20,000 nucleotides of DNA from an uncultured virus (IMG/VR IMGVR_UViG_3300033120_000711). Taxonomy: Duplodnaviria > Heunggongvirae > Uroviricota > Caudoviricetes. A program made the translations under genes and the position numbers. Under the pieces are notes generated by a model. It saw only the letters and a list, made by a program, of their open reading frames with translations, ran no database searches and was not told the origin of the DNA. Positions 1,094 to 13,307 of the stretch are shown here, in pieces. Where the stretch lies: IMG/VR virus record IMGVR_UViG_3300033120_000711. One strand, written 5' to 3'. The number at the start of each line of letters is the position of its first letter. Position 1 is the first letter of the stretch.

Positions 1094-2179
1094 TCACCTC
1101 TTAAATTTTAAATCAAAATATTCTTTTGCGATTTCAGGATATTTAATTTCAAAATTCCTCATTGTTCTATATGCAATATGTTTCTCGCCATGCGCCTTAC
1201 AAAACTCTCTAAAAGACATTCTTTTGAAAAGTGCGGGCTGATTACACCATCTTGAGACATGAGTATATAATTTTTCAAATTTGCTTCCTTTAAAAGAATT
1301 ATAGCGCATTATATAGGGTTCACATTTATAGTTAATTAATAATTTTATTCTAAGGAGCATGTTTTCTATATCTTTTAAATCTTGTGATTCATGGGCAACT
1401 AAAACATATAGTTTTGTATTTTTATTTGTAATTTGTTTCCACATTTGTAATTTAGATTCAATTAAACTATAGTCTTTAATGTTATCAAAAGCAAATATAA
1501 AATCACCATCATACTTACATGAAGCTAATATTTGTGCGGTTTTCTCATTTAGTAGTCTTAGATCTAATCCTTGTTTAAATTGAAACTTTTTCTTTGTTGA
1601 AATTAAACTTTGTAGAATATCTGTATAATTATGGTATCCAAGGAAATTATCATCTAATAGACATATTAACTTTCTTTTTTGATCTATAAATTCGTTAATC
1701 GGAGAATGAAGCTCTACCTTATTATAATTTTTATTTACACAAAAATCACAATGTCTAAAACATCCTCGCGTAGTAAATCCTATTGAATAGTCAGTGTAAT
1801 ACTTTATTTTTTTTAAAGAAATTCCTGACTTAATTTGTTGTTCTATCCAATTATTATATAATGAATAATCGGGAAAGGAATGCTCTATTTTTTGTTCAAG
1901 CGGCACGGCATTTTCTAAGAAGAATCCAGTTCCGCCATATTCTAAATTGTGAATTTTATTTAAATCTATAGGTATTTTAGCGTCGGTAAATGCGCTGGAT
2001 AGAAAAATCTTATCATATTTTTCTAGATTATTATAATTTAAGAGTAAACCTGTATTATAACCTCTTGTTTTATAATATGAACTAATTTTCATTAAAGCTA
2101 GATTAGGAAACCTATGATTTTTTCGGCCTAGAAGGTCAGCATCTATAAGTCCAATTCTCTTCGAAATAAAATCACCCAT
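1094..2179 (-). CDS. Radical SAM protein with N-terminal FPNLALMKIS (B12-binding-like) region
   Basis: TRGCFRHCDFC (CxxxCxxC), LLDDNFL, QGLDLRL; 361 aa; ATG 18 nt after the promoter motif and no SD, so probably leaderless. Confidence 0.85.
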   Translation of the reverse strand: MGDFISKRIGLIDADLLGRKNHRFPNLALMKISSYYKTRGYNTGLLLNYNNLEKYDKIFLSSAFTDAKIPIDLNKIHNLEYGGTGFFLENAVPLEQKIEHSFPDYSLYNNWIEQQIKSGISLKKIKYYTDYSIGFTTRGCFRHCDFCVNKNYNKVELHSPINEFIDQKRKLICLLDDNFLGYHNYTDILQSLISTKKKFQFKQGLDLRLLNEKTAQILASCKYDGDFIFAFDNIKDYSLIESKLQMWKQITNKNTKLYVLVAHESQDLKDIENMLLRIKLLINYKCEPYIMRYNSFKGSKFEKLYTHVSRWCNQPALFKRMSFREFCKAHGEKHIAYRTMRNFEIKYPEIAKEYFDLKFKR

Positions 2180-6763: not shown

Positions 6764-7044
6764 AAAAGTTCCTCAATAACTTTATCTATAAAATCATTTG
6801 TACAATGGTCGTCATATTTAAAACATTTTACCCATCGTCCGTCTATAGATTCCCATTTTTCTTTAATAGCTCCAACGTCAATCCCATGACAAATTCCGTG
6901 CCAAACATCTTCTTTACTTAATTCGGTTAATGTTACTAAACCAGAAAAATAAGGTAATGGATAATGTCTACAGGCAACTAATACTTTTAGGTTCCGAGGA
7001 AGTAAGTCCCATTTTTCCTGGTTAAAGTTTCCCTTCATTTCCAT
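6757..7044 (-). CDS. Putative winged-helix DNA-binding protein
   Basis: Helical segment YFSGLV..LSKEDVW..IDVGAI followed by a beta-hairpin KEKWESIDGRWVKCF. Confidence 0.5.
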   Translation of the reverse strand: MEMKGNFNQEKWDLLPRNLKVLVACRHYPLPYFSGLVTLTELSKEDVWHGICHGIDVGAIKEKWESIDGRWVKCFKYDDHCTNDFIDKVIEELLC

Positions 7045-8045
7045 TCCTCCTCGTCGTGACTACTTAATCCTACAATACTCCAATCTGTGACTCCATAGGA
7101 CATTACATTCCCTCCAGAACAGCCTCTATATCTACGAGGTCCAGTCATTGCCTCATCTACGATTTTATTGAATTTTGATACGACATCTTCTTTTTTAGGA
7201 GAAACCTTTTCTACAGGAGCAATACTTGGCGTCATTTCTTCTGTTATAGGATATCTAATACAATTTCTGCAAGATTTGTGCCAAACATTTGGTCCGAATC
7301 TAATTTCTTTAAACTCGTTCTCCCAAATATCCTTTAAAGATCTCTCAAAGAGATTTCCCTGGACTGAAACAGAACCAGAAGTTCTTTCGCTTAGACACGG
7401 AACAACGTCTCCATCTGCTGTAATTCCACAGGAAACCATTCCCGCAGAACAGGTGTGTTGATCTTGCAAATTATCAGCAAGTATGTATTTCATTCCTTTC
7501 AAGTCTCTAATTTTCTTTTTGAGATAAGAAATACCAGTAGGGTTTAATAAGAGATCTGACCCAGTATTCAACTGAATTTGCCAGGACTTAAATGATTGAG
7601 CAATTTCAGCTAATTTATCAAATTCCCAAATGTTGTGAGTTCCAAAATTTGTAACCATTACTACATCTCTATATGGTACTTTAGAAATATATGTTGGCTT
7701 AAGAAAATCATCGGGGTAATTCACAGATAATCCAATTATATTTAATCTACTAATCGCCTTAGATTTTCCGAGTAATTTTCCATTTGTTATGGCTCGAACG
7801 TCGCAATGATATAAAATTTTTAAATCATTAATTATAGATGCCAAATCGTTATCGTCAATTTCTCCTGGTTCTCCTCCGGACAAAGTAACTACTTCAACTC
7901 CATAAGACCCAATTTCTTTTGCGATATGAAGCATACGATCTATAGGTGGATTTGTACTTCTAAGTTCATTTTTAGATCCGCAGTAGTTACAATGTTTTCC
8001 ACATTTAAGTGTGATTTCCCAAATAATGTCTTTTAGTTTAAGCAT
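7035..8045 (-). CDS. Radical SAM/SPASM-type protein, splicease (PlpX)-like
   Basis: WEITLKCGKHCNYCGS, LSGGEP, WQIQL, CSAGMVSCGITADGDVVPCLS, GNL...IWE, CRNC; disordered C-terminal tail. Confidence 0.85.
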   Translation of the reverse strand: MLKLKDIIWEITLKCGKHCNYCGSKNELRSTNPPIDRMLHIAKEIGSYGVEVVTLSGGEPGEIDDNDLASIINDLKILYHCDVRAITNGKLLGKSKAISRLNIIGLSVNYPDDFLKPTYISKVPYRDVVMVTNFGTHNIWEFDKLAEIAQSFKSWQIQLNTGSDLLLNPTGISYLKKKIRDLKGMKYILADNLQDQHTCSAGMVSCGITADGDVVPCLSERTSGSVSVQGNLFERSLKDIWENEFKEIRFGPNVWHKSCRNCIRYPITEEMTPSIAPVEKVSPKKEDVVSKFNKIVDEAMTGPRRYRGCSGGNVMSYGVTDWSIVGLSSHDEEEWK

Positions 8046-8292
8046 CTTTTTTGATCTCCTTTATTGCTTCGTAGTTTCTTGAAATTAAACCCGCAACATA
8101 TTCTCTTGCTTCAGGGTTAAACATTTCATATTTATCAAAATCTGCTAAAACTTTGCTTTTTATCTTCTGTTTCTTTTCTAAATCTTTTATAGCGGTCTCT
8201 TTTTTCATTCCAACTCCATAGTTTCCCGGAGATTCAGTATCAAAAGCATAGTAAATCTTCTCTTTGCGAGGTTTAATAACTGTTATTACTAT
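8038..8292 (-). CDS. Hypothetical protein, 84 aa from a probable ATA start (56 aa from the internal ATG)
   Basis: Open frame IVITVIKPRKEKIYYAFD...KKDA*; GGAGATGAT SD 4 nt before ATA; missed by the ORF track. Confidence 0.6.
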   Translation of the reverse strand: MVITVIKPRKEKIYYAFDTESPGNYGVGMKKETAIKDLEKKQKIKSKVLADFDKYEMFNPEAREYVAGLISRNYEAIKEIKKDA

Positions 8293-8304
8293 TCAAATCA
8301 TCTC

Positions 8305-8667
8305 CTATAACCTTTTCTCTAGAATTTTAACTGTCTCGTTATAAGCATCTAATAATGCAATTGCAGGATCGTTCCTAGAAATAGTTGTAGTGACTTCATC
8401 AGAAATAAGTTCTCCGATGGAAACCTCATAACCAATTAATCTTTCCAGTAAGCCCGTAAATGGATTATACAACCCTGTTTGAGTTATTTTCCAGAACCAC
8501 TTTCTTTTTGTTATTGCTCTTTGGAGACATCCCTGTAACACATCTTTTTCTACTATTGGGTCAATACCCATTTTCTCGTCCATCGTAGCCAATATAATAC
8601 TCTGCCATTCTTTATAGGTTTTTTCGTCCTGAAGTTTTAGGACTTCCAATGCGGTATCAAATTCCAT
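8305..8667 (-). CDS. Hypothetical protein, paralog of 6404..6763
   Basis: Track ORF 8305..8736; ATG 8667 with GGGGA SD aligns with the paralog N-terminus. Confidence 0.75.
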   Translation of the reverse strand: MEFDTALEVLKLQDEKTYKEWQSIILATMDEKMGIDPIVEKDVLQGCLQRAITKRKWFWKITQTGLYNPFTGLLERLIGYEVSIGELISDEVTTTISRNDPAIALLDAYNETVKILEKRL

Positions 8668-8756
8668 ACTTTTTCCCCGTAATCTATTTATTCTATGAAA
8701 ATATATTCTATTTTGTCTAGTAAAGTAGATAGACAACAGAATCGTGTTCTACAGAG

Positions 8757-8933
8757 CTAGACCTCTTCTATTTCATTTCCTAAAAACCAAGTTATTTTAT
8801 CTCTGACTTGGAGTATCATAACCTTTACTCGTGGATCATTAATATCATCCCTCTGATATTGTTCGTCAAGGTAATCCAGGGCTTTTTCTAAAAGAGAAAG
8901 GCCATTATCTGTAACTCTATATTCTATTCCCAT
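8757..8933 (-). CDS. Hypothetical protein, 58 aa (MGIEYRVTDNG...)
   Basis: Manual translation; overlaps the end of the upstream gene. Confidence 0.6.
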   Translation of the reverse strand: MGIEYRVTDNGLSLLEKALDYLDEQYQRDDINDPRVKVMILQVRDKITWFLGNEIEEV

Positions 8934-9132
8934 CTTCCAAACCCCACGTCTTAATATCTTGTATTATATCCACTAATTTTTCATACTTAGAAAATATTGC
9001 TATTCCAGCAAGGGAAACATCAGGATTTTTAGACTCCATTGCTTTTCGGATGGTTTCAATAAGGTCTTTTTGAATTATTTCAAGATAAACACGGGTCACT
9101 GGAGGTTTCCCCGGACAACATCTATCTGTCAT
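8917..9132 (-). CDS. Hypothetical protein
   Basis: ORF track; GAGGTG SD; 3 nt after the radical SAM stop. Confidence 0.7.
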   Translation of the reverse strand: MTDRCCPGKPPVTRVYLEIIQKDLIETIRKAMESKNPDVSLAGIAIFSKYEKLVDIIQDIKTWGLEDGNRI

Positions 9133-9135
9133 ATT

Positions 9136-10155
9136 CTACACCTCGTACACTGGACAGGATCTGCAATTATTTAACAAGAGCTTTCTAAATGATTTAAATT
9201 CTGTGCTATACCAAACATTCTGAAGAAAATCTTCTGTCAAATTCAGGTTTCCAACAAAAGAGACTCCTTCGCAGAATGAACAAGGCCAAGCTTTTCCATT
9301 AACATCTATATAGATGCTAAATAAAGTAGACTCACACGGTTCTACATTCTGTTTTAGTCCTTTTAGCGCACCATACTTTGGGTTTCTATCTAAAAAATCT
9401 AAGAACTTTTTAGATGAGCACGAATCAAACCCAAATCTTATCCAGTTGTCTAGGCAATAGCTTGTGATAGTATCAAATTTTTCTTGATCTATCTTATTAT
9501 AGTTTTCCCCGCGTCCCTTCTTCTTTAAAGAAAGAAATACTATTGCATTCAGATCCTTCAATCTTGGGTCTGTCTCAATATCGTGTATGGTTTCCATACA
9601 ATTTTCATAAGTTTCTTCTGCCACCAGTTGGTGAATATTGACCTGTTTTAGACCTGCTTCAGTCAGCTTTTGGACAGCATCATAACACACATTCTTGTTA
9701 TCATATCGAGATACTGCTACAGCTCCGCAAACCTCAGCTAACTTAAAAGCCCATTCAGGAGTTAATCCCCATCCATTTATTGTAACATTAGGAACTACAC
9801 CATTATCTCTGCAATACCAGAAAATATCTAGCATATTTGGATTAGAATTTAAATCCCCAATTCCAAATGCAATTTGTAATATGGTATTTGGAAGATTACT
9901 AAAGACTTTTTTAAAAGTCTTAAGGTTCATATTCTTTCCGATGCTTGTATTGGATTTATAGCAGTGTGAGCAAGCCTTCCCTTCTATCCCATGACAAATT
10001 GTAGAGATTTCTATATCTGCAAGCTCTGGTCCTATTGGAGAATATTGTGGGTCATCATTAAACGTTTTTCCCCATCTTCTAAACTTTCCAGTAACATCAT
10101 CAAAATCATAGTTATAAAATGGGGTGCGAACTTCCTTAAAATCCATCTTTTTCAC
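9136..10155 (-). CDS. Radical SAM protein with twitch/SPASM-like C-terminus and atypical Cx7Cx2C motif
   Basis: DIEISTICHGIEGKACSHCYK; QIAFGIGD; PNVTING; CES...IDVNGKAWPCSFCE...CRSCP. Confidence 0.85.
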   Translation of the reverse strand: MKKMDFKEVRTPFYNYDFDDVTGKFRRWGKTFNDDPQYSPIGPELADIEISTICHGIEGKACSHCYKSNTSIGKNMNLKTFKKVFSNLPNTILQIAFGIGDLNSNPNMLDIFWYCRDNGVVPNVTINGWGLTPEWAFKLAEVCGAVAVSRYDNKNVCYDAVQKLTEAGLKQVNIHQLVAEETYENCMETIHDIETDPRLKDLNAIVFLSLKKKGRGENYNKIDQEKFDTITSYCLDNWIRFGFDSCSSKKFLDFLDRNPKYGALKGLKQNVEPCESTLFSIYIDVNGKAWPCSFCEGVSFVGNLNLTEDFLQNVWYSTEFKSFRKLLLNNCRSCPVYEV

Positions 10156-10396
10156 CCATTACGGTAAATTCATTTGTTAAATCGATCAAATCTTGGTCGT
10201 TTAATTCTTCAGCACGGACCTTAATTTTATCGAGCACGCTCTTTAATTGAAACACCATCTCTTTATCGAGTTTATATTGCTTACAATTTTTACTACACTC
10301 TTCAGATTCTAAAAATAGTAGATCCTCCTTTCCTCTAAATTTTACAATAAAGCTAGAAGAACTACTATTGGAAACAAAGCCATTTCTAATCTTCAT
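10136..10396 (-). CDS. FVSNSSS-motif protein 5 (MKIRNGFVSNSSSSSF)
   Basis: ATG 10396 with GGTGG SD; N-terminal motif. Confidence 0.8.
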   Translation of the reverse strand: MKIRNGFVSNSSSSSFIVKFRGKEDLLFLESEECSKNCKQYKLDKEMVFQLKSVLDKIKVRAEELNDQDLIDLTNEFTVMGEKDGF

Positions 10397-10751
10397 TTTG
10401 TAACCACCTTTTAAAACGATCATATGTCTTAAATTTTTCTTTAATTTCGTCCTTAGCGGTATCGTAATTTATACCTCTAGATTTGAATATGTAAGATAAA
10501 ATTTCGCCTTGGTCAAAAGCTAGAAGGTTACATACGGGACATAAAGTAGCCGGAACTTCTCCGTTCCACTCATCTATTTGTTTTCTAACTTCTGGAGAAA
10601 GACAAAATTCGTGAAATATATGTTCGTTCTCACATCTAATCATATTAAAATCAGAAAGACCAACCTCAAAACCCGCCTCTTCTCCACCGCAAATAGCACA
10701 TATAAACGAGCTTGAACTCGAATTACTTACAAACCCTGTTCTAGTAATCAT
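10386..10751 (-). CDS. FVSNSSS-motif protein 4 with RING-H2-like zinc finger
   Basis: MITRTGFVSNSSSSSF followed by C-x2-C-x18-C-x3-H-x2-H-x2-C-x20-C-x2-C. Confidence 0.8.
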   Translation of the reverse strand: MITRTGFVSNSSSSSFICAICGGEEAGFEVGLSDFNMIRCENEHIFHEFCLSPEVRKQIDEWNGEVPATLCPVCNLLAFDQGEILSYIFKSRGINYDTAKDEIKEKFKTYDRFKRWLQNED

Positions 10752-10924
10752 TCGTAAACCCTCTCATACTTATTAATAATTTTAGCTTCAACCATCTTGT
10801 CCAGCATATTTTCCAATTTGTTTCGATATTCTTCAAATATTTCTAAGGTTATTTCTGTTCCTTTATATTTTACAATAAAAGAGGCAGAAGAGGAATTACT
10901 TACAAATCCTTCTCTAATCTTCAT
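10748..10924 (-). CDS. FVSNSSS-motif protein 3 (MKIREGFVSNSSSASF), 58 aa
   Basis: ATG 10924 behind AGGTGAT SD. Confidence 0.8.
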   Translation of the reverse strand: MKIREGFVSNSSSASFIVKYKGTEITLEIFEEYRNKLENMLDKMVEAKIINKYERVYE

Positions 10925-10929
10925 TAAAA

Positions 10930-11364
10930 TCACCTGTTATAGAAATTAAATCTCCACTTAAACCTCTTGGACTCTCCTCCGTCTCGAAGGATATAATCAT
11001 AAATCTCCCCAAGAAGGGTTCCTTCTTCATCACCGAATTGAATCCCATTCTCTCCGGGTGCGAGGGATTTTGTTCTTTGCGGAGACCAAAACATCCCTTC
11101 TTTTTGTTCTTTTTCTCTAGCCTCGTGGCACATTAGATCTATTACCTCTTCAAGAGTTTGGCATTTAAACATTTTTCCACTATGATCTTGTCTAAACTCC
11201 TTTCCGATGATCCTAGTATCAAATTGTTCTTCAAATTCTTTTACTAATTGTGAATTTTCTTTTATAAATTCACAAAGATGAAGCCTCTCTTTAGTTTTAT
11301 TCTCAATAATAAAGCTCGTTGAGCTGCTATTTGACACAAATCCATCTCTAGTTTTAATGTCCAT
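10930..11364 (-). CDS. FVSNSSS-motif protein 2 (MDIKTRDGFVSNSSSTSF; possible ATT start at 11358)
   Basis: ORF track; N-terminal motif; GGAGG SD. Confidence 0.8.
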   Translation of the reverse strand: MDIKTRDGFVSNSSSTSFIIENKTKERLHLCEFIKENSQLVKEFEEQFDTRIIGKEFRQDHSGKMFKCQTLEEVIDLMCHEAREKEQKEGMFWSPQRTKSLAPGENGIQFGDEEGTLLGEIYDYILRDGGESKRFKWRFNFYNR

Positions 11365-11734
11365 TCCTCCTGCAATACTCTTTAAGGTCCTCTAAACTAC
11401 TGAACTGCTCTTTAATTTCTCTTCTATACATATTTAAATCTGATGTAGAAAGGATATATCGAATTAATATATGTTCTGGAATAATTTCTAAGTTACAAAT
11501 GGGACAGTACTTTTCTGGAATTTTATTAGGATTCTCTATTTCATCCAACTCTTCTATGGTAAGTCTCATCCCATCTGGAAGGCACCTAATATGAAATTCA
11601 TGCCCTATTTCACAACAGAACATATCATTTTCAGTTGGATCTGCATCACCAATCATTTCATTCTCTATTCCGCAGATTTGACAAAAAAACGAAGTTGAGG
11701 AGGAATTCGAAACAAAGCCAAATCTTCGTTTCAT
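11354..11734 (-). CDS. FVSNSSS-motif protein 1 with RING-H2-like zinc finger
   Basis: MKRRFGFVSNSSSTSF followed by C-x2-C-x19-C-x3-H-x2-H-x2-C-x25-C-x2-C. Confidence 0.8.
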   Translation of the reverse strand: MKRRFGFVSNSSSTSFFCQICGIENEMIGDADPTENDMFCCEIGHEFHIRCLPDGMRLTIEELDEIENPNKIPEKYCPICNLEIIPEHILIRYILSTSDLNMYRREIKEQFSSLEDLKEYCRRNGH

Positions 11735-11808
11735 CTATTCTCCCACCCAATTATGAGTCCAAATAGGAAAATCAGAACTATTTATTAAAGCAAATACTTC
11801 TTTCGAAT

Positions 11809-12249
11809 TCATTTTACCATCCACAGCATATCAATTGCAATTTCATACTTCTTTTCCATTCTTTCTCTTACATCATTAGGAAGATTTTTCATTCGTGGGA
11901 TACTTGAATTGTGTCGAACATCTTCCCACTTAACATTTATTGCGACTTTTCCTGCGTTAATAATTCTTCTAATGTAATCTTTGTATGGTTCATTTTTTAA
12001 ATGGGTCAGAGCAACTAATGCCTTGGATTCTTCTTCTGTCAATTTAATTCTATTTACAAGATCAGAAAGTTCTACTTGAGGACAGTCTTCAAGCACATCA
12101 TGAAGAACCGCAACAATTCTTTCTGATTCAGTATCCATCTGTGTCATTACATGCAACGGATGAAAAATGTAAGGCACTCCAACCTTATCAAGTTGTCCTC
12201 TATGAGCCCATACAGCAAAAGCGATCGCCTCTTCTAGTCTATTCAACAT
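11809..12249 (-). CDS. HD-domain hydrolase, stand-alone RelA/SpoT-hydrolase (SAH/Mesh1)-like
   Basis: AHRGQ-x-DK-x-G-x-PYI-x-HP, AVLHDVLED, VK-x-x-D-x-x-HN; ATG 12249 with GAGGT SD. Confidence 0.85.
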   Translation of the reverse strand: MLNRLEEAIAFAVWAHRGQLDKVGVPYIFHPLHVMTQMDTESERIVAVLHDVLEDCPQVELSDLVNRIKLTEEESKALVALTHLKNEPYKDYIRRIINAGKVAINVKWEDVRHNSSIPRMKNLPNDVRERMEKKYEIAIDMLWMVK

Positions 12250-12253
12250 AATA

Positions 12254-12523
12254 TTACCTCGGGTCCGTCGCTGGTACTCCACCGCATCTTTCTATAGCGA
12301 GTCCAATTTGGCAAGTAGCTGGAGGCTTAGGTCTTTCATACTCTGGTTCGGAATACCCTAGTTTCGTAAACCAGTCTGGACCGAACCTATCTCGCAAAAG
12401 CTTAACCTCATCCTCGCTAAGATCCTTTGGCAATAGCCCTCCAGACATGTTGAGCAAAAGATTATTGGTTTTATCTTTCCAATCAAAATTTTCTGGAATT
12501 GAATATGCTACCTTCTCTGCCAT
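12254..12523 (-). CDS. Hypothetical protein
   Basis: ORF track; TTAAATA box about 25 nt upstream. Confidence 0.7.
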   Translation of the reverse strand: MAEKVAYSIPENFDWKDKTNNLLLNMSGGLLPKDLSEDEVKLLRDRFGPDWFTKLGYSEPEYERPKPPATCQIGLAIERCGGVPATDPR

Positions 12524-12554
12524 GCTATCCTATTAGGTTTAATACTATTTAATC

Positions 12555-13307
12555 TTAACGCCTCATTGCAAACGGCAATCTTCTTTTAACAACTTCTTCT
12601 GCTTGCTTAACGTCTCCTCTATAGATATGAAGTGAATCGTTTTTATCTATTAGTCTATATATTTTACAATTATTTGGACCATACACGTATTTATTCATCA
12701 TCCAAATAATCGCGATGAGATTTGGTTGCCATGCATTAAACAAATCTCTAGACCTCCAATCCAAGTGAAGATCTACATAGTTAACCCCATCCTCTTCACC
12801 AATCCAACGATTCCATGCACGCTGAAAACAGGGGCTTGCATTACTTACTATATCTAATTTGGGTTCCCACGTAATTGCTTGAGACCTATTAGATCCAATT
12901 TTGTTGTTTATTTGATCCTCTAATTGGTCTCTAAGAACTTTTAATTGATCTGTGATTCCTTGATACTGTACTATCCTTTCTACATACAAATAAGTAAACT
13001 TCTTTTTTGGGGGCCAAGTATTATATTTGTTTAAAAGAAAATCTACATCAAACTCTCTTTTATACTGCTCTACAGATTTAAAAGAAAAATCAGGATGCAG
13101 TTTTTCTCTTGTTATTTGATTGATGGCGTTACCAGTTAATTCTATTGTCTGGCAAGAATCTTTGGCGTACTTAGGCTCTTTTGGATCTCCGAAGATAATA
13201 TCTACATCCGATTCCAAAACATTATCTATTGCAGTTAACCATGCAATATGAAAGTCACCTGATTTTACAGTAAAAAGCTTAGAAAGTTTTATCAAACTAA
13301 TCACCAC
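12555..13307 (-). CDS. thyA: Thymidylate synthase-like protein, archaeal type (start may be TTG at 13295)
   Basis: FTYLYVERI, SNRSQAITW, catalytic PCFQ, WRSRDLFNAWQPNL, SLHIY. Confidence 0.8.
   Translation of the reverse strand: MVISLIKLSKLFTVKSGDFHIAWLTAIDNVLESDVDIIFGDPKEPKYAKDSCQTIELTGNAINQITREKLHPDFSFKSVEQYKREFDVDFLLNKYNTWPPKKKFTYLYVERIVQYQGITDQLKVLRDQLEDQINNKIGSNRSQAITWEPKLDIVSNASPCFQRAWNRWIGEEDGVNYVDLHLDWRSRDLFNAWQPNLIAIIWMMNKYVYGPNNCKIYRLIDKNDSLHIYRGDVKQAEEVVKRRLPFAMRR

What the first reader, a model, noticed from the sequence alone, without database searches (positions are those of the whole stretch)
9136..11734. Five tandem FVSNSSS-motif proteins coupled to a radical SAM enzyme: candidate virus-encoded protein-modification (RiPP-like) system
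Seen: five consecutive overlapping or abutting genes all start M-x-x-R-x-G-F-V-S-N-S-S-S-[STA]-S-F and then diverge into different bodies (58-144 aa). The last one overlaps the start of a radical SAM/twitch gene. The motif is conserved at protein level, not DNA level: its serines switch between TCN and AGY codons (TCC AAT AGT AGT TCT; AGT AAT TCG AGT TCA; TCA AAT AGC AGC TCA; TCG AAT TCC TCC TCA). Known: SPASM/twitch radical SAMs typically modify peptides or proteins, for example Ser/Cys to formylglycine in anSME, or crosslinks and epimerizations in RiPPs. I recall similar N-termini on uncharacterized phage proteins but know of no assigned function. Inference: the motif is a portable N-terminal tag that the enzyme modifies or recognizes, so one maturase would serve a panel of effector proteins.
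Basis: partly seen in the sequence, partly recalled or inferred. Interest (0 to 1): 0.9.

Follow-up and report, generated by a model that had tools for sequence, protein, structure and literature searches.

The report
Phage protein tag with dedicated radical-SAM enzyme
Five neighbouring phage genes all begin with the same 16-residue serine-rich tag and sit next to a radical SAM enzyme that is predicted to grip that tag; the pairing recurs in many uncultured phages and in phage RB43 and has not been described in the papers searched.

Summary
Five consecutive minus-strand genes (11734..10136) start M-x-x-R-x-G-F-V-S-N-S-S-S-[STA]-S-F with mixed TCN/AGY serine codons. The last one overlaps a twitch-type radical SAM gene (9136..10146).

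- **Linkage runs both ways.** 51 of 66 and 33 of 51 tag-selected viral loci carry this enzyme within 10 kb. 67 of 73 distinct enzymes fetched on their own have tagged genes within 10 kb, 276 of 277 on the same strand. No other gene family recurs.
- **Most exceptions are fragments.** RB43-like coliphages carry both parts about 20 kb apart.
- **The tag is portable.** It starts at residue 1 of about 24,000 protein clusters, on more than 100 unrelated bodies.
- **The tag is not part of the fold.** AlphaFold2 leaves residues 1-12 at pLDDT below 50.
- **The co-fold supports binding.** It places tag residues 1-19 in the enzyme's barrel, score 0.88 against 0.02 for the best control.
- **Four tag residues are fixed.** R4, N10, S11 and S12 essentially never vary.

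Chemistry and biological role remain unknown. My best guess is an oxidative modification at N10-S12. No Pfam or NCBIfam family and no paper I could search describes the pair. Interest is high.

The parts
11354..11734 (-). Tagged gene 1, 126 aa. Tag MKRRFGFVSNSSSTSF, followed by a zinc-ribbon body (CxxC...H...CPxC) and a C-terminal three-helix part.
   Evidence: The tag HMM scores 50.1 bits. In the AF2 model, residues 1-12 have pLDDT below 50 and the body is folded. This is the most common body class (58 of 95 sources).
10930..11364 (-). Tagged gene 2, 144 aa. Tag M-DIKTRDGFVSNSSSTSF (one extra residue before the tag). The body is unrelated to gene 1.
   Evidence: Homologues with the same body: 14 of the 215 proteins held. 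No Pfam, PHROG or NCBIfam match.
10748..10924 (-). Tagged gene 3, 58 aa counted from ATG 10924. Tag MKIREGFVSNSSSASF.
   Evidence: The N-terminus matches phrog_7397 positions 1-28.
10386..10751 (-). Tagged gene 4, 121 aa. Tag MITRTGFVSNSSSSSF. Zinc-ribbon body, a paralogue of gene 1 (38% identity).
10136..10396 (-). Tagged gene 5, 86 aa counted from ATG 10396. Tag MKIRNGFVSNSSSSSF. Its stop overlaps the enzyme's start.
   Evidence: The N-terminus matches phrog_7397.
9136..10146 (-). Radical SAM enzyme with a twitch-type (single auxiliary cluster) C-terminal domain, phrog_7293. It is the predicted tag-binding and tag-modifying enzyme.
   Evidence: Pfam SPASM and phrog_7293 at E 3.6e-88. Invariant C54/C62/C65 plus C246/C274/C292/C334. 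AF2 pLDDT 93.9. The nearest folds are peptide-modifying radical SAM enzymes. Co-fold with the tag scores 0.88 against 0.02.

Best explanation
This is a two-part phage system. One part is a dedicated twitch-type radical SAM enzyme (9136..10146). The other is a family of otherwise unrelated small proteins that each carry the same 16-residue tag at residue 1: M-K-[IVT]-R-x-G-F-V-S-N-S-S-S-[ST]-S-F.

Proposed mechanism:
1. The tag is disordered on its own.
2. Tag residues 2-7 pair as a strand with the enzyme's short N-terminal beta-sheet (residues 22-29).
3. The rest of the tag, up to about residue 19, lies across the open end of the barrel, over the SAM site and next to the auxiliary cluster.
4. 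The 5'-deoxyadenosyl radical abstracts a hydrogen from the tag, most likely in the never-varying N10-S11-S12 stretch.
5. The fully Cys-ligated auxiliary cluster takes up an electron.
6. The outcome is a two-electron oxidation: serine to a formylglycine-type aldehyde, or a cross-link within the tag.

One enzyme would thus mature every tagged protein of the phage (1 to about 15 per genome).

Shown by computation: the pairing of the genes, the portability and N-terminal position of the tag, the tag lying outside the fold, and the predicted binding mode.

Inferred: that binding leads to covalent modification, which residue is hit, the chemistry, and what the modified tag is for.
For: **Linkage from tag to enzyme**
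- 51 of 66 loci fetched with the tagged proteins have a homologue of the enzyme within 10 kb.
- In a body-independent DNA-pattern scan, 33 of 51 distinct regions with at least 15 kb held have it. In 11 cases the nearest tagged gene is under 100 bp away.
- Of 27 records without it nearby, 7 carry it elsewhere, including all 4 that are at least 80% complete.

**Linkage from enzyme to tag**
- 72 of 80 loci fetched with the enzyme alone have tagged ORFs within 10 kb (67 of 73 distinct enzymes).
- 276 of 277 of these ORFs are on the enzyme's strand.
- 6 of the 8 remaining records have matches elsewhere in the record.

**Cultured phages**
- RB43 and Taquito have the enzyme (about 40% identity) and 2 tagged genes each, about 20-25 kb away.

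**Specificity**
- Across 94 loci plus the window, only the enzyme family (70 sources) and tagged families recur.
- No other window gene is found in more than 6 loci.
- The next families occur in 16 sources or fewer. The one I located lies antisense inside the enzyme gene.

**Portability**
- 363 tagged ORFs fall into 103 body families, 69 of them singletons.
- 24,213 clusters at 50% identity match the tag profile at E <= 0.001.
- In 136 of the 147 newly returned proteins among the best 150, there is one tag and it starts at residue 1.

**Not a fold element**
- In the AF2 model with 78 sequences, residues 1-12 have pLDDT below 50 while the body is folded.

**Predicted binding**
- ipSAE was 0.87, 0.88 and 0.89 in three runs. 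The best of 3 controls scored 0.02. This mark was reached by 116 of 157 solved complexes and 2 of 215 mismatched pairs.
- The runs agree in at least 59% of contacts. Partner pLDDT is 48-51.
- The interface is tag residues 1-19.
- 18 of the enzyme's 32 invariant columns lie among the 48 interface residues.

**Enzyme class**
- The nearest solved folds are peptide- or protein-modifying SPASM/twitch enzymes: SuiB, SkfB, CteB, anSME and EpeE, at TM 0.48-0.69 normalised to the query.

**Fixed tag residues**
- On 435 distinct tags, R4, N10 and S11 never vary and S12 varies once.
Against: - No modification has been observed. All evidence is genomic or predicted.
- The co-fold's partner pLDDT is only 48-51. 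The tool's calibration did not include ligands or user alignments.
- The tool gives no coordinates, so I cannot say which tag residue faces SAM.
- Conserved active-site residues would lie in any modelled interface, so the 18-of-32 overlap is not independent proof.
- 18 of 51 regions and 15 of 66 loci lack the enzyme within 10 kb. One 75%-complete 301-kb record lacks it altogether.
- The window enzyme misses the Pfam Radical_SAM model.
- The only tag-enzyme fusion (P0137) is a singleton on a 2.2-kb contig. It lacks the enzyme's N-terminal strands, and 0 of 119 relatives are fused. It adds nothing.
- The enzyme-tag covariation (S147 with S6 tags: 3 of 5 against 4 of 95, Fisher p = 0.002) is not corrected for relatedness. 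Y171 also occurs with ordinary tags.
Confidence: 0.6

Rival explanations
1. Docking peptide rather than substrate. The tag only anchors the small proteins to the enzyme. They would act as interchangeable adaptors, regulators or inhibitors, while the enzyme's true substrate is something else, such as a host protein, a nucleic acid or a small molecule.
For: The same linkage and co-fold data show association, not turnover. The bodies are diverse, as in adaptor families. Some bodies carry domains that bind other things: a zinc ribbon, a STAS-like DUF4325, and a Cas_Cmr3-like stretch.
Against: In the co-fold the tag fills the barrel opening and touches the C-terminal ends of all barrel strands and the auxiliary-cluster cysteines. 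That would block any other substrate. The tag's strictest conservation lies in N10-S12, not in the strand-pairing part, residues 2-7, where positions 3, 5 and 6 vary. Many bodies are only 40-70 residues beyond the tag.
Confidence: 0.15
2. The tag has another job and the enzyme is only a neighbour. The tag would be a targeting, stability or assembly signal, for example packaging into the capsid like the T4 internal-protein targeting sequence, or a degradation signal. The enzyme would merely travel in the same variable cassette.
For: The tag is always at residue 1, as N-terminal targeting signals are. The cassettes lie among small, fast-evolving genes. In RB43 the enzyme and the tagged genes are about 20 kb apart.
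Against: Linkage holds across enzymes only 33-73% identical to the window's, and no other gene is shared. It also holds at whole-record level where local linkage fails. The co-fold is specific against 3 controls. No prohead-protease-type cleavage motif follows the tag; residues 17 onwards vary.
Confidence: 0.1
3. The motif is a structural or catalytic element of a shared fold. It would be the first beta-strand and a phosphate-binding-type loop of a divergent enzyme family, and the apparently diverse bodies would be one fold.
For: The pattern of hydrophobic strand, small-residue loop and hydrophobic strand recalls nucleotide-binding loops (my recollection, not tested). The residues after the tag are hydrophobic, F-[IV]-[IVC].
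Against: AF2 with a 78-sequence alignment leaves residues 1-12 at pLDDT below 50, with a block mean of 35 for residues 1-10. Bodies range from 45 to 420 aa, fall into 103 BLAST families, and have different Pfam hits where any exist. A 58-aa protein cannot hold such a fold.
Confidence: 0.03

Closest known systems
Anaerobic sulfatase-maturing enzymes (anSME / AtsB / AslB)
   Same: A SPASM-family radical SAM enzyme that acts on a short linear motif within a protein rather than a free peptide, and can oxidise a serine. anSME is among the top structural matches (4k36-4k39). Some sources label homologues of the window enzyme 'AslB'.
   Different: The anSME target motif (C/S)-x-(P/A)-x-R (recalled) is absent from the tag. 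anSME has two auxiliary clusters (recalled), whereas only four extra invariant cysteines are found here, enough for one cluster. Sequence identity is 13-15%. The substrates here are unrelated proteins sharing an N-terminal tag, not one enzyme family.
RiPP radical SAM maturases with cognate precursor families (SuiB/streptide, SkfB, CteB, PqqE)
   Same: The logic is the same: a conserved recognition sequence on the substrate, variable remainder, an adjacent maturase, and often several precursor genes in tandem. These are the best structural matches. The weak sequence matches are to the twitch enzymes BtrN and SkfB.
   Different: The conserved part is at residue 1 and seems to hold both the recognition and reaction sites. 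The variable part is a folded protein of up to about 400 aa. No RRE domain is present, only a three-strand N-terminal sheet. No protease or exporter is conserved nearby. All NCBIfam maturase models score far below their cut-offs.
T4 internal proteins with the capsid targeting sequence
   Same: Both are polymorphic sets of unrelated small phage proteins that share a short N-terminal tag and are encoded in variable regions of T4-like genomes (recalled knowledge).
   Different: There is no sequence likeness to that tag. There the partner is the prohead and its protease; here it is a radical SAM enzyme. Not tested beyond the absence of a conserved cleavage site after the tag.
Glycyl-radical enzyme activases
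   Same: A radical SAM enzyme acting on a short motif of a protein. The tag contains R-x-G-F, which is faintly like the R-V-x-G-[FWY] glycyl-radical fingerprint (recalled).
   Different: G6 is replaceable by S, C, K, N, Y or F. The spacing differs. The tag is N-terminal and disordered rather than buried in a barrel.

Membership tests
Radical SAM superfamily (enzyme 9136..10146) | Three-cysteine motif binding the SAM cluster (canonical CxxxCxxC) | tested here: met
   C54, C62 and C65 are invariant in 57 homologues. The spacing of the first two cysteines varies from 3 (canonical, e.g. CHQGCKFC) to 12. The window copy is Cx7CxxC.
Radical SAM superfamily (enzyme 9136..10146) | Match to the Pfam Radical_SAM model (PF04055) | tested here: not met
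   Only SPASM is reported for the window protein at E <= 0.01. Some homologues carry a precomputed PF04055 hit.
Radical SAM superfamily (enzyme 9136..10146) | Partial TIM-barrel fold like solved members | tested here: met
   The AF2 model has pLDDT 93.9 with six beta-alpha units. Foldseek gives probability 1.00 to SuiB, SkfB, anSME, viperin and others.
SPASM/twitch subgroup | C-terminal cysteine-rich domain (PF13186) | tested here: met
   29.4 bits against a cut-off of 21.5, residues 274-335.
SPASM proper (two auxiliary clusters) | Seven or more conserved auxiliary cysteines | tested here: not met
   Only C246, C274, C292 and C334 are invariant outside the SAM motif. That is enough for one cluster, i.e. 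twitch-like.
anSME (formylglycine-generating) | Substrate motif (C/S)-x-(P/A)-x-R and a match to an anSME model | tested here: not met
   The tag has no such motif. No anSME model appears among the NCBIfam hits, and all hits are far below cut-off.
RiPP biosynthetic cluster | Short precursor peptide with a leader that is cleaved off, and a protease and/or exporter in the cluster | tested here: not met
   The tagged ORFs are 45-315 aa, median 133, and up to 422 aa in the protein database. No further family recurs in the neighbourhoods.
RiPP biosynthetic cluster | Covalent modification of the precursor by the maturase | not testable with these tools
   This needs mass spectrometry.
Glycyl-radical protein / activase pair | Invariant glycine as the radical site | tested here: not met
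   G6 is replaced in 23 of 435 distinct tags, by S, C, K, Y, N and other residues.
PHROG families phrog_7397 (tag proteins) and phrog_7293 (enzyme) | Profile match | tested here: met
   The enzyme matches phrog_7293 at E 3.6e-88. Two of the five tagged proteins match the first 28-45 positions of phrog_7397. The RB43 protein P0217 matches phrog_7397 over its full length at E 4e-117. Both families are annotated 'unknown function'.

The most novel reading that the evidence does not exclude
A virus-specific 'tag and modify' system. A 16-residue genetically portable N-terminal tag is converted by one phage radical SAM enzyme into a chemically new N-terminus, for example a serine-derived aldehyde or an Asn/Ser cross-link at the invariant N-S-S. 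This modification would arm, stabilise or direct a rapidly diversifying arsenal of host-takeover or anti-defence proteins. If so, it would be a previously unknown post-translational modification carried by tens of thousands of viral protein families. It would also be a ready-made enzyme and tag pair for protein engineering.
Probability: 0.35. Interest if true: 0.9.

Novelty: new variant of a known kind. Interest (0 to 1): 0.8.

Why it matters
- **Scale.** The tag marks about 24,000 clusters of phage proteins at 50% identity, almost all without any annotation. One shared handle gives a single experimental entry point to a large block of viral dark matter.
- **Reach of the known principle.** The pairing extends radical SAM maturation guided by a recognition sequence from peptides (RiPPs) and single enzyme families (sulfatases) to a panel of unrelated folded proteins in viruses.
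- **Testability.** The system is present in RB43 and its relatives, which grow on laboratory E. coli, so it can be tested directly.
- **Possible tool.** If the product is a reactive or cross-linked N-terminus, the 16-residue tag and its enzyme could become a protein-labelling tool.

Tried and rejected
- **DNA similarity to cultured phages.** Searching window 8000-13000 gave no match. tblastn of the 144-aa tagged protein against phages also gave none, probably because the low-complexity filter masks the tag.
- **RB43 neighbourhood.** No tagged gene lies within 5 kb of the RB43 enzyme, which at first looked like a counter-example. The whole-record search then found two tagged genes about 20-25 kb away.
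- **PDB profile search with the enzyme.** The top hits are designed pentatricopeptide repeats whose scores are sums of one short repeated segment. I treat them as spurious.
- **Fold search with the zinc-ribbon body.** Nothing at E <= 0.001, only faint PHD/RING-like zinc fingers.
- **Tag-enzyme fusion P0137.** Rejected as evidence. It is a singleton, lacks the enzyme's N-terminal strands, and 0 of 119 relatives are fused.
- **Enzyme-tag covariation.** Q171Y first looked compensatory for the G6S/S9A tags of L249, but it also occurs with ordinary tags. Only the weak S147 association remains.
- **Glycyl-radical idea.** Rejected because G6 varies.
- **Epimerase idea.** Judged less likely because there is no invariant non-ligand cysteine. 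This is inference only.
- **GTDB genome scan.** 9 confirmed loci, all on MAG contigs from unrelated phyla. This gives no sign of a cellular home.
- **Literature.** No paper holds the strings FVSNSSS or NSSSSSF. VSNSSS and SNSSSSS occur only in unrelated papers. Searches on radical SAM with RB43-type phages, phage RiPPs, N-terminal motifs and virion proteomes found no description of this pair (search listings only). In PMC11118758 I read passages only. Passages of PMC7029224 mention radical SAM cassettes in the variable region of pelagimyophages.
Full report
**Observation.** The window is phage-like. It is a long run of minus-strand genes that includes a helicase, an RNase H, an RNA-ligase-like protein, an HD phosphohydrolase, a thymidylate-synthase-like protein and many small ORFs without matches. 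Between 11734 and 10136 lie five consecutive, overlapping or abutting minus-strand genes. Their products all begin M-x-x-R-x-G-F-V-S-N-S-S-S-[STA]-S-F and then diverge to 28-38% identity. A degenerate DNA pattern for the motif matches five times, against none in 200 shuffles. The serines use both TCN and AGY codons at the same positions, so selection acts on the protein. The fifth gene overlaps the start of a 336-339-aa gene (9136..10146/10155). That gene matches Pfam SPASM and PHROG family phrog_7293.

**The enzyme.** I collected 57 homologues from viral contigs. The cysteines C54, C62 and C65 are invariant. The spacing between the first two ranges from the canonical three residues to twelve, and the window copy has seven. 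Four more cysteines (C246, C274, C292, C334) are invariant. That is enough for one fully ligated auxiliary cluster, i.e. a twitch-type domain rather than a full SPASM domain. The AF2 model is confident (pLDDT 93.9). It shows a three-strand N-terminal sheet, a six-unit partial barrel and the cysteine-rich C-terminal domain. The nearest solved structures are peptide- or protein-modifying enzymes: SuiB, SkfB, CteB, anSME and EpeE, at TM 0.48-0.69 normalised to the query and 12-16% identity. By sequence only the twitch enzymes BtrN and SkfB appear, and only weakly. NCBIfam maturase models all score far below their cut-offs.

**The tag.**
- A profile of the five proteins found more than 3350 proteins of 33-252 aa among 8000 candidates scored, and 95 proteins of 253-422 aa.
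- In 195 of the 215 proteins listed by those two searches, the motif sits at the same offset from residue 1.
- An exhaustive profile search with only the first 36 residues found 24,213 clusters at 50% identity with E <= 0.001.
- Of the 147 newly returned proteins among the best 150, 136 have one tag at residue 1. Eight more have a tag at residue 1 and a second one further in, probably two genes called as one.
- In viral loci, 363 tagged ORFs of 45-315 aa fall into 103 BLAST families by their bodies, 69 of them singletons.
- 59 of 63 tagged proteins scanned have no Pfam match.
- The ESM Atlas neighbours are 'hypothetical protein' clusters that are 92-100% viral.
- A scan of one genome per prokaryotic species found the motif only on MAG contigs of unrelated phyla.

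**Is the tag part of a fold?** AF2 on the 126-aa zinc-ribbon protein with 78 homologues folds the body. Residues 1-12 stay at pLDDT below 50, with a block mean of 35 for residues 1-10. The most conserved segment of the family is therefore the least structured in the monomer. This is the signature of a linear motif that works by binding something else.

**Linkage.**
- From tag to enzyme: 51 of 66 loci fetched with the tagged proteins carry a homologue of the enzyme within 10 kb.
- That set was biased to the zinc-ribbon body, so I repeated the test with a DNA pattern covering the tag only. It gave 104 distinct regions, of which 51 had at least 15 kb held, and 33 of those carry the enzyme. The nearest tagged gene is often tens of bases away.
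- Whole-record searches of 27 records without a nearby enzyme found it elsewhere in 7, including all four that are at least 80% complete. Most of the rest are 6-45% complete. One 75%-complete record lacks it.
- From enzyme to tag: 80 loci fetched with the enzyme profile alone hold 73 distinct enzymes. 67 of these have tagged ORFs within 10 kb (72 of 80 loci by regular expression). 276 of 277 of the ORFs are on the enzyme's strand, with a median of four per locus.
- Six of the eight remaining records have matches elsewhere in the record (one is a body-only match at a contig end). The two without are 9% and 14% complete.
- Specificity: across 94 loci and the window, the enzyme family occurs in 70 sources and tagged families in up to 58. 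No other window gene is shared with more than 6 loci. No other family reaches more than 16 sources, and the one I located lies antisense inside the enzyme gene. The association is therefore not a by-product of general synteny.
- Cultured phages: 173 records, almost all Pseudotevenvirus (RB43, KP27, GAP161 and relatives), carry the enzyme at about 40% identity. RB43 and Taquito each have two genes starting MKIRSGFVSNSSSSSF about 20-25 kb from it. One of these is the full-length founder type of phrog_7397.

**Predicted binding.** I co-folded the enzyme (57-row alignment) with residues 1-36 of the zinc-ribbon protein (76 rows), SAM and two 4Fe-4S clusters.
- The scores were 0.87, 0.88 and 0.89, against 0.02 for the best of three controls.
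- That mark was reached by 116 of 157 solved complexes and 2 of 215 mismatched pairs in the tool's calibration. The calibration holds only roughly here.
- The runs agree in at least 59% of contacts. The partner's pLDDT is 48-51.
- The interface is exactly tag residues 1-19.
- On the enzyme it comprises residues 22-29 and 32-35 (the edge of the N-terminal sheet, paired with tag residues 2-7), the C-terminal ends of all barrel strands (45, 47, 94-98, 121-125, 143-147, 171-175, 203-208), and the region of the auxiliary-cluster ligands (240-246, 269-275, 292-294).
- Eighteen of the enzyme's 32 invariant columns lie among these 48 residues. About 4.5 would be expected if they were placed at random, though conserved active-site residues would be expected in any such interface.
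- The model supports binding. It does not show it, and it does not say which residue faces SAM.

**Constraints on the chemistry.**
- On 435 distinct tags, R4, N10 and S11 never vary and S12 varies once. G6, S9, S13, S14, S15 and F16 tolerate substitutions.
- G6 is therefore not a glycyl-radical site.
- Tags with S6 tend to have A9 (6 of 10, against 3 of 412 for G6 tags), which suggests the two positions are neighbours in the bound state.
- All four tags of one phage (L249) are of this S6/A9 type.
- Enzymes with S147 instead of A147 are enriched among loci that have S6 tags (3 of 5 against 4 of 95, Fisher p = 0.002, uncorrected for relatedness). Position 147 lies in the predicted interface. This is weak support only. 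The Q171Y change that first looked compensatory also occurs with ordinary tags.
- The auxiliary cluster has four cysteine ligands and no invariant spare cysteine. By analogy with known enzymes (recalled: anSME and BtrN use the auxiliary cluster as electron acceptor; epimerases need a cysteine hydrogen donor), this favours a two-electron oxidation or a cross-link over epimerisation or thioether formation.
- My best guess is an oxidation or cross-link centred on N10-S11-S12, for example serine to formylglycine. I put that specific chemistry at no more than about 0.3.

**What it is for.** This is unknown. The cassettes hold 1 to about 15 tagged genes, are highly polymorphic, and sit among small unannotated genes. 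This resembles phage arsenals for host takeover or counter-defence, but that is an analogy. A few bodies carry recognisable pieces: a STAS-like DUF4325, a Cas_Cmr3-like stretch, and a nucleoside 2-deoxyribosyltransferase-like domain just below its cut-off.

**Comparison with known systems.** The logic is that of a RiPP or anSME system: a recognition sequence plus a radical SAM maturase. Membership fails on several defining features.
- The substrates are proteins, not short precursors.
- There is no RRE, protease or exporter.
- There is no sulfatase motif.
- There is one auxiliary cluster rather than two.

Neither Pfam nor NCBIfam has a model for the tag. Both PHROG families are 'unknown function'. 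Seven searches of the paper library found no description. The library lacks most subscription journals, so prior description elsewhere cannot be excluded.

**Verdict.** The functional pairing of tag and enzyme is very likely (about 0.85). That the tag is covalently modified is likely (about 0.6). The chemistry and the biological role are open. I rate it a new variant of a known kind, with high interest.

Noticed in passing
window 1094..2179 (-) and 7035..8045 (-): There are two further radical SAM genes within 9 kb of the finding. One is a phrog_9298-type gene (E 8e-52). The other is a canonical CxxxCxxC enzyme with a SPASM domain. The 7035 gene accompanies the tag system only in the closest relatives, in 4 of 94 representative loci. 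Its own substrate is unknown.
   Followed up: partly
L249 12067-13923 (+): All four tags of this phage are the variant M-K-x-R-Q-S-F-V-A-N-S-S-S-S-S-F (G6S together with S9A). Locus L047 has two such tags beside two ordinary ones. This points to concerted change within a genome and coupling between tag positions 6 and 9.
   Followed up: partly
protein P0137 (422 aa, metagenome contig of 2242 bp): A single protein joins a tagged N-terminus to the enzyme. The enzyme's N-terminal strands, which the co-fold pairs with the tag, are missing. None of 119 relatives is fused. It could be a real rearrangement or an assembly chimera.
   Followed up: yes
RB43 record 69359-71578 (L074 2860-5079, -): A 739-aa protein (phrog_2426, unknown function) lies between the two RB43 tagged genes. 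Its N-terminus has a DxSxS-type motif that reminds me of von Willebrand A domains (recalled, not tested).
   Followed up: no
proteins P0204, P0142, P0184: A few tagged proteins carry recognisable domains after the tag. P0204 has a Cas_Cmr3-like stretch (43.6 bits). P0142 has a nucleoside 2-deoxyribosyltransferase-like domain (28.7 bits, cut-off 28.8). P0184 has a STAS-like DUF4325 (38.1 bits).
   Followed up: no
window 12555..13307 (-) and 11809..12282 (-): Directly upstream of the cassette lie a thymidylate-synthase-like protein, just below the Pfam cut-off (23.8 against 24.3 bits), and an HD-domain phosphohydrolase (phrog_990). The first could be a pyrimidine hydroxymethylase-type enzyme; this was not examined.
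   Followed up: no
proteins P0132 and P0179: Two tagged proteins have 35-41 extra residues before the tag. One of them has a precomputed F-box-like Pfam hit (PF12937). They may be mis-called starts or come from a different kind of virus.
   Followed up: no
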